Assembly: GCA_965153285.1 (NCBI GenBank)
Contig: OZ229117.1
From: Podarcis tiliguerta
Taxonomy: Eukaryota
Reading direction: 5' to 3' (one strand)
Length of the DNA stretch: 64,000 nt
Position numbers: made by a program. Within the stretch, counting starts at the first letter, position 1; each line of letters begins with the position of its first letter. Positions 50,801 to 56,800 of this stretch are shown piece by piece.

Positions 50801-53800
50801 TCTCAAAACAAGCCACTTGGATCACCATTATGACGTGACATGTAACCTGAAGCTTATGCTTCACTTCAGAGTGAAGTTTTGTTTTCAGTTTTATTTCTGG
50901 CTAACCCATTATGGTTTAACAAACAAACCATGGTTTAGGTTCAGACAACACGACAAGTTGCACTGTGGTTTGCTTGAGCTGCACGGGCACCATATGTGTG
51001 GGGTTGGCCTGCGGGGAGGTAAGAACTGTGTGGTGACTTGTGTAGCAGTGAGGAGGCACATTTATAATTAAATCATGGTCTAAGATTAAATCAGGATTTA
51101 AAACGGTCTAATATGAACTGTGTCCTATTATAGCATGCAAACCAGTCCATCAGGTGGCAGTGGCCACCAGTTTAGATGGTTTTCAAAGGGAAATTAGACA
51201 GCTTCATGAGGAATGAGACATCTACCAATGGCTACCAGTCATTCTACAGAGTCTTTAACCAAAATGCTCAAGGGGGTGCAAAGACTCTTATGAAAAAGGA
51301 TGCACAGTCTGGAACTTTTCAGTTTAGAGCAAAGGCAACTAAGAGGTGACATGATACAAGTTTATAAAATTATGCTTGGCATAGAGAAAGTGGATAGACA
51401 AAAGTTTTTCTCCCTGTCTAATAACACTAGAACTTATGGACATCCAATGAAGCTGGGTGTTGGAAGATTCAGGACAGAGAAAAGTATGCACCTCTTCACA
51501 CAGCACAGAGTTCAAACTATAGAATTTGCTCCTACAGGAGGCAATGATGGCCACCAAGTTGGATGACTTTAAAAGAGGATTAGACAAATTCATGGAGGAA
51601 GGGGCTATCGATGGGTACTTCTTGTGATGGCTATGCTCTGCCTCTACACTTAAGAGGTAACAATGCTTCTGAAAAACAAATGCTGGAATCTACTGGAGGG
51701 GAGAGTGCTTTTGTGCTCAAGCATAAATACAGTAGCAGTTAGGAAGGGAACAACAGGAGTGAAGGCCCATGGCCTTCATGCTCTGCTTGGAGGATTCGTG
51801 GGGGAGTAGGAGCCAGAAGGCCTCTTTGGCACAACCCAGCTTTGGGTTCTTATCCGATTACTCTATTCAAGGAAGTGAAACACAGAAAGCTGCTTTGCAG
51901 AGCCTGCCCAGGAACACTGGTGTTACTTTCCAGGCAGACTCAGCGTCAGAGATGCCGGGGACTGAAAGTGGGACCATATTTAGGGTACAAAGAGCATAAG
52001 CTATATAGAGCCCTTCCCTTCAGAAATCTGACTTTCGGACTGCGGTTTAAAGCCCAAGCAACGTCGTCCACAGCTGGCTGCACAGTCACTGAATGGCTTT
52101 GCAGCAGTCACTTAAGTGCCACCTCCGAGCATTTTTTCAGCAGCGATTCCGTTTTATTGCCACAGCTACCCTACCTGCGGGTTCCTGGACTCACACTGGG
52201 CTTTACTTCCGAGTAAACCCGCATAAACTCGGACTGAGAACCGAGGTGAAGGGACGATTTTGGGGACATTTTTTTTAAGAGGTGGAGGGAGGCGGTTTCT
52301 CTCCCCCCCCCCCGCGCCAAAAGCACCGAGGAGGCTCAGAAACGGCCCTACGCCCAGTCCCTGCCACGCAGCCCGCCGCCGCCTCCTCACCGCAGAGCCG
52401 CCTATTTTGCTCGCCGCCCCGTGGAGCTGAAGGAGGCCGCCCTGGCAGGAGCCCGTCGGCAGCACAGCCGCATCGCGCAGGCCCAGGAGCACCGGAGGAG
52501 CAGCGCCAGCCGCCATGGGCAGAGCGACGGGGCAGCCCGGCCCTCGGCGTGACAAACACGTGGGGCCCGGGGGAAGCCCGGAAGCCGCGGCGGCCGACGT
52601 CAGAGTTTACGTGTATAAGGCAGCCGAGGCGCGCCAAAGCTCTTCAGTTCGCGAAAGCCTCCCGCGCCAGGCGTATGGAAGGGAGTTGAGCAGGGGGAGA
52701 GGGAAGGAGGTCGAGCTCCAGGCAGAGCAGGATGGACGAGTAGGGGGACGGGCATCGCCTGTGGGGCTTCCTGCCTCCATTGGACTCTCATTCCCAGCAC
52801 CTCTAGCCATAGGGCTTGTGTCCAGCAGCCTTGGGAAAGCCACATAGCTAGTTCGCCAACCCGCGGATAGGAGCAAAACACCGAGGGACGCTATAGTATA
52901 CCTTTTTTATTGCATGCATTTCTACACATCCTATTTATCCAAAAGAGTTCAGGGTGGCGCACACGGTTCCCCTACCTTCCATTTAACCCTTACAATAACC
53001 CTGTAGGTAGGTTAGGATGAGAGACAGTGGGTGGCCCAAGCTTTTCAATAGCTAAAAGACAAGACACTGAAGGGCACCAGGTTACAGAAGGCTGACGAAA
53101 TCACTAGTTAGGATAAGCTGTATTCTTTAATAGCGCAAGATCTTAGCTATTCTTAACAAAACAAAAAACCGCATGCACACGTGGAATTTATGAGTGCTGT
53201 TAAAATGTGCTTTCGTTCCCCTTTTCTTTTTAATTAGTGATCTTTAGTGACTTCTGGGGCAGTCCTTCCATTCTGAGAGGAACAAAGGTTGCTAGACAAA
53301 AAGCAGCCCACGCTGAGTGTTCTGGTAAGCTTAGTGCCATTTTCATATTTATTTAAACCAAGTTTACTGTTTTCAAATGTATGAATTTGCTGGACAATCG
53401 TATATTCCAATTCGCTTCTCCAATGACTAAAAGCTATTGAATGAGTGTTACACAGGCCTCTTTCTGAAACCTACTCCCTTTTGTCTCCTCCCCCATTCTT
53501 TACCCTTTGCCATCTAAATGAAATTAGACCAAAGACCACCAGTTATTCTCTCCAGCCTTAATGCATCATTCAAAACCTGTGACCAGGCACCCACAAATCT
53601 TATTATACTATAGAATTACCGGTATGTGTGCTGATAGAGAAGGCAGATACATAAGCAGAGATACTAAGCAATACCATTTAAATGAAGGTCAGAGGCTTCC
53701 ACTCCAGGCCTCATTTGGAAATAAGCCCTGATGAAGAACATGTAACATAATTCTGAATAAATATGTGTAAGGTTGGATTTTCATTACTGTCTGGAGATTT

Positions 53801-56800
53801 TCAGAAGGAAGGATGCTAATTACTAGGCAAAACAGTGTTTTTCCATGAGATAGAAAATAAATGTCCAGGCTCTTTCCATAAACATTAATAATTTCAAAGT
53901 GAACAAGCTGCAGAATTCAGGTTCATGCTGGGCATGGATCATCCCAGTGAAATAAAAGATGGCAAAACTTTTCTAGTTTGTGATGACCCTGAGTTCCTGC
54001 CCCCTCTGTACCAAGCCTTAATATAAAAACATGTACTATCCCCCCCCCCATTCTTTCCTTACAAAAAGTGCATTTAGTAAGTTTGCAAGAGGTTGCAAAT
54101 TCAGATTTAGATCATGTATGTATTCAGATGTCATTTAAAACCATATTAATTTTATGAGAAAAATATATTGCTAAAATCTTTTAAATTTCCAATTTGCTAA
54201 AAAATATATAATTTTATCTATCGCAGTTATAAGCCCTGCCAATTTCTTTCCAGAGTTGAAAGGTTACAGTATGATGAAAGAGAACACATAAAGGAAATTA
54301 CAGGGTTTATCCCATACACTTGCACAATACTAAACAATGGACTCAAAATCAGCACTGTTAAATTGGACCCCCCCCCCATAACCCTATTCAGGGCAGGTTT
54401 ACAAAACAAGGATAAGCTAGAAAAAAACTTTCACAAAGACAGTTTTTATTGAACTGTTTTATTCTGGCTCAAAATAAAAGCCCCATTTTTCTGTAGCAAG
54501 GTACACTGAAGGTATGTCATGCTGCCGTTCACTGGGGTAAAAACACACCCCAACTAGTAAACCCAAAGGATTGGTAGATAAGACGAATTCATACCTTCAC
54601 AGAATGTCTCATTGGTATTTACAACGTATCTGGTTTAAATAAACTTGGGACACCTCATACAGTATACATACTTATTGCGACATTACAGCACTTGCCTTTT
54701 GTCTAAAAAAAAAAAATCAAAACTGCTCAGTATCATGATTTGTGGATCCCAAAAAGGCATTGTTGTTAACATGCAAAATAGTACTAAACAATAGTATCTA
54801 ACTTCTACTGCTTCCAAATACTTGACCTCATAAGTAAACCAATTACAAAATACTTCCTTATAGTGCTATACAAAAAGATATAAAATTATGATTCTATCAC
54901 TTAAATATTCCCATTTTCTAACAGTGCAGTTATCCACATTTTATCACTACTGAACATAAAGGAGAAACAAAAGAAGATCAGCAAATTAGGTAAAAATTGT
55001 TTAATCTTTGGATCCCTTTATTCCTGTGGCTTTCATACACACATACAAAATACAAGTTACCAAATTACTGTTTCTAATTATAACTTAATGTCAAAAAAGT
55101 CATAACTAGTATTTCAGAATTGGCAAAAGTTTACTCCATACCAAATCACTTGTTGGGATAAGAATAAGCAGTCAATGTCTCCAAGCTACAGTTCATCAAA
55201 ACTCAAGCAATTGCAAACACTAAATAGTCACTTTTAAATTGAGTATGTCAACATTAAAACAGAGTCAACATTTCAAGAATCAACACATGGAGACATGTCA
55301 TTTTTATTCCGGGCACATCAAAGGAAACGTAAGAACTTGTGTGTGCCTGGGTCATTTTTACTTCAAGAGTTATCACTAATATGAACTGTGAATTGTGACA
55401 TGAGTGTTGAAGTTTGTCTTCATTTGAAAAAAGCCCATTAATCTGGTCAAATCCTGCAATATGCCAAAACCTACAAAATGAATTTCTTGCAAGAGAATTA
55501 TTTTATCCAGTTTTTATATAATGGAAGAACATCTAAAATGTTTATTTTTAGTCAAAATATAAAAATCAAACAAGTTTAAAGCTGAACAGCTATGAGGAAC
55601 CGCCCCTGCAAAACAACTAATGTGTGTGGTGTGTTTGTGTTTTAGCATTTCAACCCAGCAGGTTTGTAGACTTAAAAATGTTTATTCTTAAAAAATTAGT
55701 TGCTTTTATACAGCTATACAAAGTCTTTAGTGTTTCTTTGGCAATGGGATAATCATGGAATTTTACAACTATAAAAAGTTTTCCTTTGCCTAAGAAACAG
55801 GATTTACTGTGTTTACATTGTTTTTGACTGACAAAAATCAAGTTTTCTATTGCCCAGCACCCTATTTGACAAAGAGCACAACCATCTCAAAAGGGAGATT
55901 AAAGGATTTCCAAAAACAACCTTCACTGGCTCAACACACTCACAGTACTGACGGCCTTCTGCATACAATTGTCTTTGCAGCCTGCAGTAGTAATCAAATA
56001 CAATTTGATAAATTCTTTTTGTGATGAAAAAAATACTTAAAAACTCCACTGAAGTACTGCTTTATATTTTAACTCTATGTAAGAAATTACTTAAGTCTTC
56101 TATCTCAAATATATTTAATGCTCATTGTTTTTGAAGATGGCCATTTTTTCTCCAAAAAGAGTTCTGCTCCATACCCCTTTGAAATTAAAAACAAACCCCA
56201 GTGCTGGTGACGAGTTTTACAGCAAATTAACAATTCTTTGCAAAGACTGACACATTCTCTGGATCATGAAGATCTACAGGTCCACTTGCGTTCAACTTCA
56301 GCTATGCAGCAACTTTGTTGTCTTTCTAAAATAAGAAAAAAGAAAAAAAATTACTTCCCAACCAATGCCAGTTTAGTCAAATTAATCAAGAACAGTAACA
56401 GATAAAAGGCTCAAACTAGAGAAGGCAACGTTAACAGTATTCAAAATGGGGCCCAAATCTCTCTAGATTGCATCAGTCATAATTCCAGTTAGCAAAGTCA
56501 ATTCCAAAATGCCTTCTAAAGCTAGAAATCACTGCAAGAGTGGCTTACTCTTGTGTGCAGAAACCTCTGTAGCCCAACTCAGCTACAGGGTACCTCAGGG
56601 ACCACCGGATCTCAGCTCAATCACAGAGCTCACCTGCAGGAGCGCCACTGGTTGTTCCCCAAGTTGGCAAGGCTCATTTGGCTGCAAAGAAAACTCATGC
56701 CCAGTATTTAAGAGATTTTATGAGATGATTTGTTTTTTGATTCTCTCATCCAGTATTAAACATATGTACTATTATTGCAGTTTTTTCAAGGCTTTTGTCA

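What the first reader, a model, noticed from the sequence alone, without database searches (positions are those of the whole stretch)
52700..54440. GARRE1 (KIAA0355) and GPI are missing from the LSM14A-PDCD2L interval
Seen: LSM14A poly(A) signals (54445-54463) lie only ~1.8 kb from the PDCD2L promoter. The gap holds only SINE/MITE scraps, and I see no GPI or GARRE1 exon remnants. Known (from memory): the human 19q13.11 order is LSM14A-GARRE1-GPI-PDCD2L-UBA2-WTIP, all co-oriented. Inference: a two-gene block containing the essential glycolytic enzyme GPI was cleanly removed or relocated, leaving flanking order and orientation intact, with the junction inside this ~1.7 kb. Alternatively this order is ancestral, or the assembly is mis-joined.
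Basis: partly seen in the sequence, partly recalled or inferred. Interest (0 to 1): 0.75.

Follow-up and report, generated by a model that had tools for sequence, protein, structure and literature searches.

The report
Ordinary gene gap, old lizard inversion
The short stretch between the LSM14A and PDCD2L genes of this lizard is a normal spacer between two genes. The sugar-metabolism gene GPI is most likely not lost: in birds, turtles, frogs and fish it sits beside the nearby gene WTIP, which runs off the end of the window.

Summary
On the minus strand the window reads LSM14A (3' half) > PDCD2L > UBA2 > WTIP (first exon only), all in the same direction.

About 1.93 kb separates the distal LSM14A poly(A) signals (54445-54463) from the PDCD2L start codon (52516). 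The window has no N and no trace of GPI. The gap has no recognisable coding remnant.

Tine 2015 (PMC4684624) reports GARRE1-GPI-WTIP-UBA2-PDCD2L in birds, a turtle and a frog. It reports GPI beside WTIP in coelacanth, gar and teleosts too. The mammalian order is therefore derived, and GPI and GARRE1 are expected beyond WTIP, outside this window.

LSM14A next to PDCD2L is not an assembly error. An agamid annotation has consecutive locus tags, and Podarcis lilfordi accessions follow the same order. Two of four snakes have consecutive or nearly consecutive RefSeq numbers.

My favoured reading (about 0.55) is one old squamate inversion of the block GARRE1..PDCD2L, with a breakpoint in this gap. 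The rival (about 0.25) is that the adjacency is ancestral to non-mammals. No vertebrate genome could be searched here. Low interest.

The parts
57053..63174 (-). LSM14A coding exons present in the window (protein residues about 180-464). The HSPs are 63174-62998, 62311-62213, 61043-60834, 59280-59116 and 57364-57053.
   Evidence: tblastn of the Zootoca LSM14A protein P0125. The ORF at 59002-59394 is 100% identical to lacertid 'LSM14 homolog A'. Pfam FDF matches at E 6.5e-5, 24.2 bits, below the 26.1 cut-off.
56302..56325 (-). LSM14A last coding mini-exon, with the stop codon at 56304-56302.
   Evidence: Read by eye from the minus-strand sequence after an AG acceptor, in phase with the exon that ends at 57053. 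No transcript evidence.
54445..56301 (-). Presumed LSM14A 3' UTR, about 1.86 kb. GC 0.33, CpG observed/expected 0.20.
   Evidence: The extent is inferred from the distal poly(A) signals. Four earlier AATAAA exist, at 55017, 55303, 55541 and 55681.
54445..54463 (-). Two AATAAA poly(A) signals (54458-54463 and 54445-54450), followed on the minus strand by a T/GT-rich stretch.
52517..54444 (.). Intergenic spacer between LSM14A and PDCD2L, 1,928 bp. No recognisable coding remnant. Under the favoured reading it holds one breakpoint of an old inversion.
52998..53108 (.). Two short pieces of interspersed repeat, 52998-53041 and 53069-53108.
   Evidence: blastn against the rest of the window: 85% over 46 bp to 25228-25273, and 80% over 40 bp to 4518-4557. 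The 25215-25361 element has another copy at 16521-16672.
52001..53000 (-). CpG-island-like PDCD2L promoter region, including exon 1.
   Evidence: GC 0.60 and CpG observed/expected 0.79 in both 500-bp windows. At 52519-52700, GC is 0.68 and observed/expected 1.07.
44892..52516 (-). Complete PDCD2L gene: 7 coding exons, ATG at 52516-52514, stop at 44894-44892.
   Evidence: tblastn of P. raffonei PDCD2L P0001, all 385 residues. Pfam PDCD2_C at 2e-14. Homologue search: best hit 95% identical, E 4.4e-79.
27789..42910 (-). UBA2 (SUMO-activating enzyme subunit 2), from the first to the last coding exon.
   Evidence: ThiF at 2.1e-7 and 2.1e-9, and UBA2_C at 3e-9. PDB SAE2 match at E 9.5e-43. Exon ORFs were read.
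16850..18037 (-). WTIP exon 1 (residues 1-403), inside a CpG island at 17001-18500. The LIM-domain exons are not in the window, so 1-16849 lies in WTIP's first intron.
   Evidence: tblastn of P. raffonei WTIP P0233 gave this single HSP. Homologue search: 94% identical, E 1.5e-229. CpG island.

Best explanation
The stretch 52517-54444 is an ordinary head-to-tail intergenic spacer. It runs from the end of the LSM14A 3' UTR, through about 1.3 kb of AT-rich single-copy DNA with two repeat scraps, to the CpG-island promoter of PDCD2L.

GPI and GARRE1 were not lost and were not excised from here.
- In non-mammalian vertebrates the block reads GARRE1-GPI-WTIP-UBA2-PDCD2L. GPI lies on the WTIP side of the trio (shown in print for birds, a turtle and a frog, and the GPI-WTIP adjacency for fishes).
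- In this lizard the trio is read LSM14A>PDCD2L>UBA2>WTIP> (shown here).
- GPI and then GARRE1 are therefore expected just past WTIP, beyond coordinate 1 of the window (inferred).
- If LSM14A sits beside GARRE1 in birds, the human order LSM14A-GARRE1-GPI-PDCD2L-UBA2-WTIP follows from the bird-like order by inverting the trio (inferred).

Favoured sub-scenario (inferred, about 0.55):
- The amniote ancestor had LSM14A> GARRE1> GPI> <WTIP <UBA2 <PDCD2L.
- One inversion of the whole five-gene block in a squamate ancestor, after geckos split off, put PDCD2L beside LSM14A in the same direction.
- This gap would then be one of that inversion's two breakpoints.
- Mammals and squamates would each be one inversion away from the bird-like order. 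A direct human-lizard comparison then looks like a clean two-gene deletion.
For: 1. Gene content, order and strand in the window.

2. No GPI anywhere in the 64 kb (with the control). No Pfam family in 25 of 25 gap ORFs of >= 38 aa. No N.

3. Tine 2015, PMC4684624. I read the synteny section with Table 1, the rearrangement section and the methods.
- KIAA0355|PGI|WTIP is given for chicken, turkey, mallard, flycatcher, Pelodiscus, Xenopus tropicalis, coelacanth, gar and 9 teleost PGI2 rows.
- The text gives WTIP-UBA2-PDCD2L after PGI in birds, reptiles and amphibians, and PDCD2L-UBA2 in mammals.
- Anolis keeps KIAA0355-PGI on a small scaffold whose downstream flank is unknown.

4. The adjacency is shared by independent squamate annotations.
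- Phrynocephalus forsythii: WTIP JRQ81_006431, PDCD2L _006433, LSM14A _006434, with accessions KAJ7312092/94/95.
- Podarcis lilfordi: LSM14A CAI5781949 < PDCD2L CAI5781954 < WTIP CAI5781959-61.
- Snakes: LSM14A and PDCD2L RefSeq numbers are consecutive in Thamnophis elegans and two apart in Pantherophis guttatus. That is 2 of the 4 snake species for which both numbers were seen.

5. Evidence that LSM14A lies on the GARRE1 side outside these squamates.
- Teleost PGI1 is flanked HSD17B2|PGI1|LSM14A. PGI2 is flanked KIAA0355|PGI2|WTIP, and in medaka KIAA0355|PGI2|HSD17B2. This puts LSM14A opposite the WTIP/HSD17B2 side (my inference).
- The paper names KIAA0355 and LSM14A as the two upstream flanks of PGI2. 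It also lists LSM14A as second upstream gene in the header row for birds, reptiles and amphibians.
- A gene model of the bird Pitangus sulphuratus (P0061) fuses a carboxylesterase (residues 30-431, E 2.5e-150) to PDCD2L (residues 414-712). Its 5' neighbour on the same strand is therefore not LSM14A.
- Gekko kuhli accessions run PDCD2L KAL8194612 < WTIP 615 < LSM14A 623, with 7 records between WTIP and LSM14A.
Against: - GPI and GARRE1 were never seen in this genome. The window stops inside WTIP's first intron, and no vertebrate genome collection was on hand.
- No row of Tine's Table 1 fills in LSM14A for any bird, reptile or amphibian. Only a header row does. Its figures were not held and I did not open its supplements.
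- That paper is loose in places. Its discussion says WTIP was 'not found' in mammals, while its results say UBA2 flanks WTIP.
- Reading gene order from accession numbers assumes positional numbering. That assumption failed in two series:
  - B10K NX numbers: Nothocercus 13 apart and Eudromia 27 apart.
  - KAM numbers: Podargus WTIP, LSM14A and PDCD2L 150-400 apart.
- The Gekko kuhli record is flagged UNVERIFIED_CONTAM. It holds duplicate WTIP and LSM14A entries, and its locus tags are not consecutive.
- The Pitangus fusion could be a chimeric model or a mis-join.
- In 2 of 4 snakes (Pituophis, Pseudonaja) the RefSeq numbers are 19-80 apart.
- Counted by events, the ancestral-adjacency rival also needs two inversions, so parsimony alone does not decide.
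Confidence: 0.55

Rival explanations
1. The window's order is ancestral. All non-mammalian vertebrates read GARRE1-GPI-WTIP-UBA2-PDCD2L-LSM14A, so nothing happened in the lizard lineage. Only mammals rearranged, by two inversions or by a transposition of GARRE1-GPI. The gap is then just a conserved intergenic spacer.
For: - Tine 2015 documents GARRE1-GPI-WTIP-UBA2-PDCD2L in birds, a turtle and a frog. No species row says what follows PDCD2L.
- The adjacency is widespread in squamates.
- LSM14A and PDCD2L lie on contigs of the same length, presumably the same chromosome, in several birds and geckos.
Against: - Teleost flanks put LSM14A on the side of GPI opposite HSD17B2/WTIP.
- Mammals also have LSM14A beside GARRE1.
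- The header row of Table 1 lists LSM14A upstream of KIAA0355 for birds, reptiles and amphibians.
- The Pitangus model has a carboxylesterase, not LSM14A, 5' of PDCD2L.
- In Gekko kuhli, WTIP is numbered between PDCD2L and LSM14A.
Confidence: 0.25
2. A human-like order LSM14A-GARRE1-GPI-PDCD2L existed in the lizard's ancestors. The two-gene block was then excised or transposed elsewhere, leaving a clean junction in this gap.
For: - Compared with human alone, order and orientation of the flanks are intact.
- No remnants remain in the gap.
Against: The human-like GPI|PDCD2L adjacency is reported only in mammals. Birds, a turtle, a frog, coelacanth, gar and teleosts have GPI|WTIP. A human-like ancestor for lizards would need several parallel changes.
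Confidence: 0.07
3. Assembly mis-join or collapsed region. GARRE1 and GPI really lie in the interval but were dropped by the assembler.
For: None found. Read-level data could not be inspected.
Against: - There is no N anywhere in the window.
- Composition passes smoothly from 3' UTR to spacer to CpG island.
- The same LSM14A-PDCD2L neighbourhood appears in an agamid and in Podarcis lilfordi, and the window itself comes from yet another lacertid.
Confidence: 0.02

Closest known systems
Non-mammalian vertebrate GPI neighbourhood, as described by Tine 2015 (BMC Res Notes 8:799, PMC4684624)
   Same: - The trio WTIP-UBA2-PDCD2L is contiguous.
- GPI is not between LSM14A and PDCD2L.
- GARRE1 (KIAA0355) stays with GPI in Anolis.
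   Different: - The paper gives no gene downstream of GPI for Anolis ('??').
- It never states what lies beyond PDCD2L.
- The LSM14A|PDCD2L adjacency, co-oriented, is not described there.
- The paper's header row suggests LSM14A is on the other side (next to KIAA0355) in birds, reptiles and amphibians.
Mammalian 19q13.11-type order LSM14A-GARRE1-GPI-PDCD2L-UBA2-WTIP
   Same: - The same six genes are involved.
- LSM14A, PDCD2L, UBA2 and WTIP have the same relative order and direction as in the window.
- The KIAA0355-PGI-PDCD2L part is in Tine's Table 1.
   Different: GARRE1 and GPI sit between LSM14A and PDCD2L in mammals, not here. By outgroup comparison the mammalian GPI|PDCD2L junction is the derived one.
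Lineage-specific micro-inversions used as rare genomic changes
   Same: A multi-gene block flipped between two intergenic breakpoints, with genes left intact and the change shared by a clade. It is shown for lacertids and an agamid, and is probable for snakes.
   Different: - Only one putative breakpoint is in view.
- The second breakpoint and the inverted genes GPI and GARRE1 were not seen.
- No inverted repeats or duplicated flanks mark the junction.

Membership tests
LSM14A gene (3' half) | Exon-level protein identity to named LSM14A orthologues, collinear on one strand | tested here: met
   The ORF at 59002-59394 is 100% identical to Podarcis and Zootoca 'LSM14 homolog A' (833 hits, best 120 listed). 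Five collinear HSPs map at 63174-57053.
LSM14A gene (3' half) | FDF domain recognised by Pfam | tested here: inconclusive
   PF09532 matches at E 6.5e-5, but its 24.2 bits are below the 26.1 cut-off. Only one exon of the domain was tested. There was no PDB match.
LSM14A gene (3' half) | 3' end at 54445-54463 actually used for polyadenylation | not testable with these tools
   Two AATAAA with a T/GT-rich downstream stretch are present. No transcript data were available, and four upstream AATAAA are alternatives.
PDCD2L gene | Full-length collinear match to PDCD2L, plus the PDCD2_C domain | tested here: met
   All 385 residues of P0001 map in 7 HSPs at 52516-44895. PF04194 scores 53.9 bits, above its cut-off of 30. 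The best homologue is 95% identical.
GPI (phosphoglucose isomerase) exon or pseudogene remnant | Any significant similarity to a PGI protein in six-frame translation | tested here: not met
   E. coli Pgi against the whole window gave a best E of 0.098 at 26.6 bits. As a control, the same protein scores about 808 bits against mammalian GPI chains.
GARRE1 (KIAA0355) exon remnant | Similarity of gap ORFs to any protein family | tested here: not met
   0 of 25 gap ORFs of >= 38 aa match Pfam at E <= 0.01. The 24 ORFs of 25-37 aa were not scanned.
GARRE1 (KIAA0355) exon remnant | Direct comparison with a GARRE1 protein | not tested
Evolutionary inversion breakpoint | The adjacency is shared by a clade in independent assemblies | tested here: met
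   Phrynocephalus has consecutive tags and accessions. Podarcis lilfordi accessions follow the same order. Two of 4 snakes have consecutive or nearly consecutive numbers.
Evolutionary inversion breakpoint | Outgroups show a different neighbour at the same junction | tested here: inconclusive
   In favour: the Pitangus carboxylesterase-PDCD2L fused model, the Gekko kuhli accession order, and the teleost flanks and table header in Tine 2015. Each of these is indirect.
Evolutionary inversion breakpoint | The other end of the inverted block (WTIP|GPI, and GARRE1|next gene) is present in this genome | not testable with these tools
   The window ends in WTIP intron 1. No vertebrate genome collection was available.
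Assembly mis-join | A gap (N) or abrupt discontinuity at the junction | tested here: not met
   There are no N runs. Composition grades smoothly. Read support is not testable here.

The most novel reading that the evidence does not exclude
The LSM14A|PDCD2L junction at 52.5-54.4 kb is one breakpoint of a single five-gene inversion (GARRE1-GPI-WTIP-UBA2-PDCD2L). The inversion arose after geckos diverged and is shared by lacertids, agamids and snakes. It would be a rare genomic change marking a large squamate clade. Its second breakpoint, beyond PDCD2L in birds, would coincide with one breakpoint of the separate mammalian inversion of WTIP-UBA2-PDCD2L. That would be re-use of the same fragile intergenic site in two amniote lineages.
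Probability: 0.35. Interest if true: 0.3.

Novelty: new member of a known kind. Interest (0 to 1): 0.15.

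Why it matters
It matters little for biology. No essential gene is missing, and the spacer looks like any compact gene-to-gene spacer. The next pair is spaced much the same: about 1.98 kb separates the PDCD2L stop codon from the UBA2 start codon.

Two modest points remain.
1. It is a clear example of how a human-referenced comparison can create an apparent clean deletion. Two lineages each differ from the ancestor by a different inversion.
2. If the inversion reading holds, the junction is a simple, PCR-sized phylogenetic marker for a large squamate clade, and a candidate case of breakpoint re-use.

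Seven searches paired names of the six genes, one of them together with 'chicken'. Two more combined PDCD2L or LSM14A with 'lizard'. None found a description of the LSM14A|PDCD2L adjacency in squamates. Tine 2015 was the only paper dealing with the region's gene order.

Tried and rejected
1. Whole-frame translations of the gap against Pfam. The call returned an error because of stop codons. I sent single stop-free ORFs instead and used no altered genetic code.

2. Accession numbers as a proxy for gene order in birds.
- B10K NX numbers are not positional: Nothocercus LS14A NXA45626 against PDD2L NXA45639, and Eudromia WTIP NXA35045 against PDD2L NXA35072.
- KAM numbers are not positional either: Podargus WTIP 6324716, LSM14A 6324969-71 and PDCD2L 6325121; Sylvia LSM14A 4894572 and WTIP 4894700.
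- The consecutive Eudromia pair KAM8799201/202 (PDCD2L, WTIP) therefore cannot be trusted.
- Bird order from accessions was dropped.

3. Over-long PDCD2L models as possible LSM14A-PDCD2L read-through fusions. I aligned 10 such models (Elgaria 462 aa, Euleptes 457 aa, Candoia 562 aa, Protobothrops 456 aa, plus P0084, P0098, P0061, P0109, P0111 and P0393). None has any LSM14A similarity. Pfam finds no extra family in the four I scanned, Elgaria, Euleptes, Candoia and P0084.

4. PDB search with the LSM14A FDF exon: no hit.

5. Rfam and repeats.
- Rfam on the whole window found nothing in the gap.
- Tandem Repeats Finder found only a 26-bp, 1.9-copy item at 53645-53670.
- ARAGORN found no tRNA in 44000-55000.

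6. Pfam on LINE-tail-like ORFs (14081-14749, 51294-51566, 5910-6113) and a SINE-like ORF (25077-25502): no family.

7. Paper searches.
- Searches gave nothing on gene order beyond Tine 2015.
- PMC7353957 (one passage read) only says GPI and LSM14A have teleost duplicates near CHST1a/b.

8. Not used, because they do not bear on the question: structure prediction, complex prediction, the atlas search, the representative-protein search and the genome-contig scan (bacteria and archaea only).

9. Exons were searched one ORF at a time. The window's exons were never joined into a spliced model, so no whole-protein search or fold of the window's own gene models was made.

Full report
WHAT IS IN THE WINDOW. 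The window has no N and is not human. All four genes lie on the minus strand.
- LSM14A. Residues 180-464 of a 471-residue lacertid LSM14A map to 63174-57053 in five collinear pieces. One exon ORF (59002-59394) is 100% identical to 'LSM14 homolog A' of Podarcis raffonei, P. muralis, P. lilfordi and Zootoca vivipara (833 hits, best 120 listed).
- LSM14A 3' end. A final mini-exon at 56325-56302 ends in a stop codon at 56304-56302 (read by eye).
- PDCD2L. The gene is complete. All 385 residues of the P. raffonei protein map in seven pieces from 52516 to 44895. Pfam PDCD2_C matches at 2e-14. The large exon is 95% identical to the P. raffonei protein (112 hits).
- UBA2. It runs from about 42910 to 27789. 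Evidence is ThiF and UBA2_C in Pfam and a PDB match to SUMO-activating enzyme subunit 2 at E 9.5e-43.
- WTIP. Exon 1 is at 18037-16850, 94% identical to P. raffonei WTIP. It is the only WTIP exon found, so coordinates 1-16849 lie inside WTIP's first intron.
- Promoters. CpG-island-like stretches sit at the three promoters: 17001-18500, 42501-43500 and 52001-53000.
- Method. I searched ORF by ORF and did not join the window's exons into spliced models.
- Taxon. Against Podarcis, Zootoca and Lacerta proteins the window is 92-94% identical for PDCD2L and WTIP. It is therefore a lacertid of another genus. I did not go further.

THE GAP ITSELF.
- Poly(A) signals. A T/GT-rich stretch follows.
- Caveats on the signals. 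AATAAA is frequent in this AT-rich window, 122 matches against 56.6 expected. Four further copies lie in the presumed 3' UTR. The real 3' end may therefore be up to 1.2 kb further from PDCD2L.
- Size. From the distal signal to the PDCD2L ATG (52516) is 1,928 bp.
- Composition grades along the gap:
  - 3' UTR: GC 0.33.
  - 53101-54444: GC 0.37, CpG observed/expected 0.20.
  - 52701-53100: GC 0.52.
  - The 182 bases just upstream of the ATG: GC 0.68, CpG observed/expected 1.07.
- Repeats. Only two short stretches match elsewhere in the window: 52998-53041 (85% to 25228-25273) and 53069-53108 (80% to 4518-4557). The element at 25215-25361 has another copy at 16521-16672. 'Scraps' is fair, but most of the gap is single-copy within the window.
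- Other scans. Tandem Repeats Finder and Rfam add nothing in the gap.

NO REMNANTS.
- GPI. I took pgi from E. coli K-12 and ran tblastn against the whole window. The best hit had E 0.098 and 26.6 bits, inside an LSM14A intron, and all 30 listed hits were at chance level.
- Control. The same protein scores about 808 bits over about 540 residues against mammalian GPI chains in the PDB. A real vertebrate GPI exon would have been seen.
- Gap ORFs. 49 stop-to-stop ORFs of >= 25 aa overlap 52650-54450. I scanned the 25 of >= 38 aa against Pfam, and none matched at E <= 0.01.
- Limits. The 24 shorter ORFs were not scanned. No GARRE1 protein was available to me, so GARRE1 was tested only in this indirect way.

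WHAT IS KNOWN ABOUT THE NEIGHBOURHOOD. Nine paper searches turned up one relevant paper: Tine 2015, BMC Res Notes 8:799 (PMC4684624). I read its abstract, its synteny section with Table 1, its section on rearrangements and its methods. Its figures are not held, and I did not open its supplements.
- Table 1 lists KIAA0355 (GARRE1) | PGI | WTIP for chicken, turkey, mallard, collared flycatcher, Pelodiscus, Xenopus tropicalis, coelacanth, spotted gar and nine teleost PGI2 loci. The zebrafish row shows WTIP only, and the medaka row shows HSD17B2 in place of WTIP.
- The text says the three genes after PGI in birds, reptiles and amphibians are WTIP-UBA2-PDCD2L. In mammals it finds PDCD2L-UBA2.
- For Anolis it gives KIAA0355-PGI, with the downstream flank unknown.
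- Conclusion. GPI beside WTIP is the widespread and therefore older state. GPI between LSM14A/GARRE1 and PDCD2L is the mammalian novelty. In a lizard, GPI should not be expected between LSM14A and PDCD2L at all.
- Prediction. The window ends in WTIP's first intron. GPI and GARRE1 should therefore lie just beyond its left edge. This is inferred, not seen.

IS LSM14A|PDCD2L REAL AND HOW OLD IS IT? The homologue tables carry source names and locus tags.
- Agamid. In Phrynocephalus forsythii, WTIP is JRQ81_006431, PDCD2L is JRQ81_006433 and LSM14A is JRQ81_006434. All are on a contig of the same length. Their accessions are KAJ7312092, KAJ7312094 and KAJ7312095.
- Lacertid. In Podarcis lilfordi the accessions run LSM14A CAI5781949, PDCD2L CAI5781954, WTIP CAI5781959-61.
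- Snakes. I saw both numbers for four species:
  - Thamnophis elegans: consecutive.
  - Pantherophis guttatus: two apart.
  - Pseudonaja: 19 apart.
  - Pituophis: about 80 apart.
- Conclusion. The order is shared by several independent squamate assemblies. A mis-join or a recent lacertid event is very unlikely.

ANCESTRAL OR DERIVED? Tine's species rows do not say where LSM14A lies outside mammals and teleosts. Two scenarios fit.
- Scenario A: LSM14A follows PDCD2L in all non-mammals, and the window's order is ancestral.
- Scenario B: LSM14A precedes GARRE1, as in mammals. Most squamates then inverted the five-gene block GARRE1..PDCD2L.

Four indirect lines favour B.
- Teleost flanks. PGI1 is flanked HSD17B2 | PGI1 | LSM14A. 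PGI2 is flanked KIAA0355 | PGI2 | WTIP, and in medaka KIAA0355 | PGI2 | HSD17B2. LSM14A therefore falls on the GARRE1 side and HSD17B2 on the WTIP side (my inference).
- The paper's own wording. It names KIAA0355 and LSM14A as the two upstream genes of PGI2. Its header row for birds, reptiles and amphibians lists LSM14A before KIAA0355.
- A bird gene model. In Pitangus sulphuratus, P0061 joins a carboxylesterase (residues 30-431, E 2.5e-150) to PDCD2L (residues 414-712). The gene 5' of PDCD2L on the same strand is therefore not LSM14A there.
- A gecko. In Gekko kuhli the accessions run PDCD2L KAL8194612, WTIP KAL8194615, LSM14A KAL8194623. Seven records lie between the last two. This fits PDCD2L-UBA2-WTIP-GPI-GARRE1-LSM14A.

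Against B:
- The gecko record is flagged UNVERIFIED_CONTAM and holds duplicated entries.
- The fused bird model may be chimeric.
- Accession order was shown not to be positional in two other series.
- Both scenarios cost two inversions overall.

I put B at about 0.55 and A at about 0.25.

HOW THE PATTERN ARISES UNDER B.
- Start from LSM14A> GARRE1> GPI> <WTIP <UBA2 <PDCD2L.
- Inverting the last three genes gives the mammalian order.
- Inverting the last five gives LSM14A> PDCD2L> UBA2> WTIP> <GPI <GARRE1, which is what the window shows as far as it reaches.
- Each lineage is one step from the ancestor.
- The two inversions would share a breakpoint beyond PDCD2L.

VERDICT.
- The favoured interpretation (excision or loss) is not supported. 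The 'junction in this gap' idea may survive as an old inversion breakpoint.
- The feature is an ordinary intergenic spacer, and interest is low.

NOT CHECKED.
- The rest of this genome, read support, and gene order in chicken, turtle, tuatara and well-assembled geckos. No vertebrate genome collection was on hand.

Noticed in passing
window 45080-45149 (+): Rfam reports a tRNA-like match at 30.7 bits against a gathering score of 29. It lies in the last PDCD2L intron, just upstream of the final coding exon. ARAGORN finds no tRNA there. It is probably the tRNA-derived head of a SINE.
   Followed up: partly
window 14081-14749 (-), 51294-51566 (+), 5910-6113 (-): These are long ORFs in WTIP intron 1 and PDCD2L intron 1. 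From recall, they look like the C-terminal tails of LINE ORF2 proteins. Pfam finds no family in them.
   Followed up: partly
window 25215-25361, 16521-16672, 52998-53041: A SINE-like interspersed repeat is present in three copies or pieces (75-85% identity). One piece lies in the gap and one just after WTIP exon 1.
   Followed up: partly
window 44838-44853 (-) and 42910-44892: PDCD2L has three overlapping AATAAA about 40-55 nt after its stop codon. Only about 1.98 kb separates its stop from the UBA2 start codon. The PDCD2L-UBA2 spacing is thus about as tight as LSM14A-PDCD2L.
   Followed up: no
window about 23640-23960 and about 8880-9010 (-): Dinucleotide microsatellites show up as long His-Thr and Arg-Glu runs in translated ORFs.
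   Followed up: no
protein P0061 (Pitangus sulphuratus, contig of 152,214 bp): A deposited gene model named 'Fatty acyl-CoA hydrolase precursor' fuses a carboxylesterase domain to most of PDCD2L. It suggests a carboxylesterase gene directly 5' of PDCD2L in this bird.
   Followed up: partly
Gekko kuhli records KAL8194612-KAL8194631 (contig of 69,190,506 bp): WTIP appears twice with identical sequence (KAL8194615 and KAL8194624). LSM14A appears twice too (KAL8194623 and KAL8194631). The record is flagged UNVERIFIED_CONTAM. This looks like a tandemly retained haplotype in that assembly.
   Followed up: no
cluster of P0128 (snake LSM14A): The member list of this 90%-identity cluster includes four snake proteins named PDCD2L (P0415, P0417, P0422, P0425). 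They align to PDCD2L only and not to LSM14A. It is an unexplained quirk of the clustering or the listing.
   Followed up: partly
PDCD2L models P0004 (Elgaria, 462 aa), P0009 (Euleptes, 457 aa), P0065 (Candoia, 562 aa): These models carry N-terminal extensions of 85-204 residues. The extensions match neither LSM14A nor WTIP, and Pfam finds no extra family. They are probably upstream starts called in the GC-rich 5' region.
   Followed up: partly
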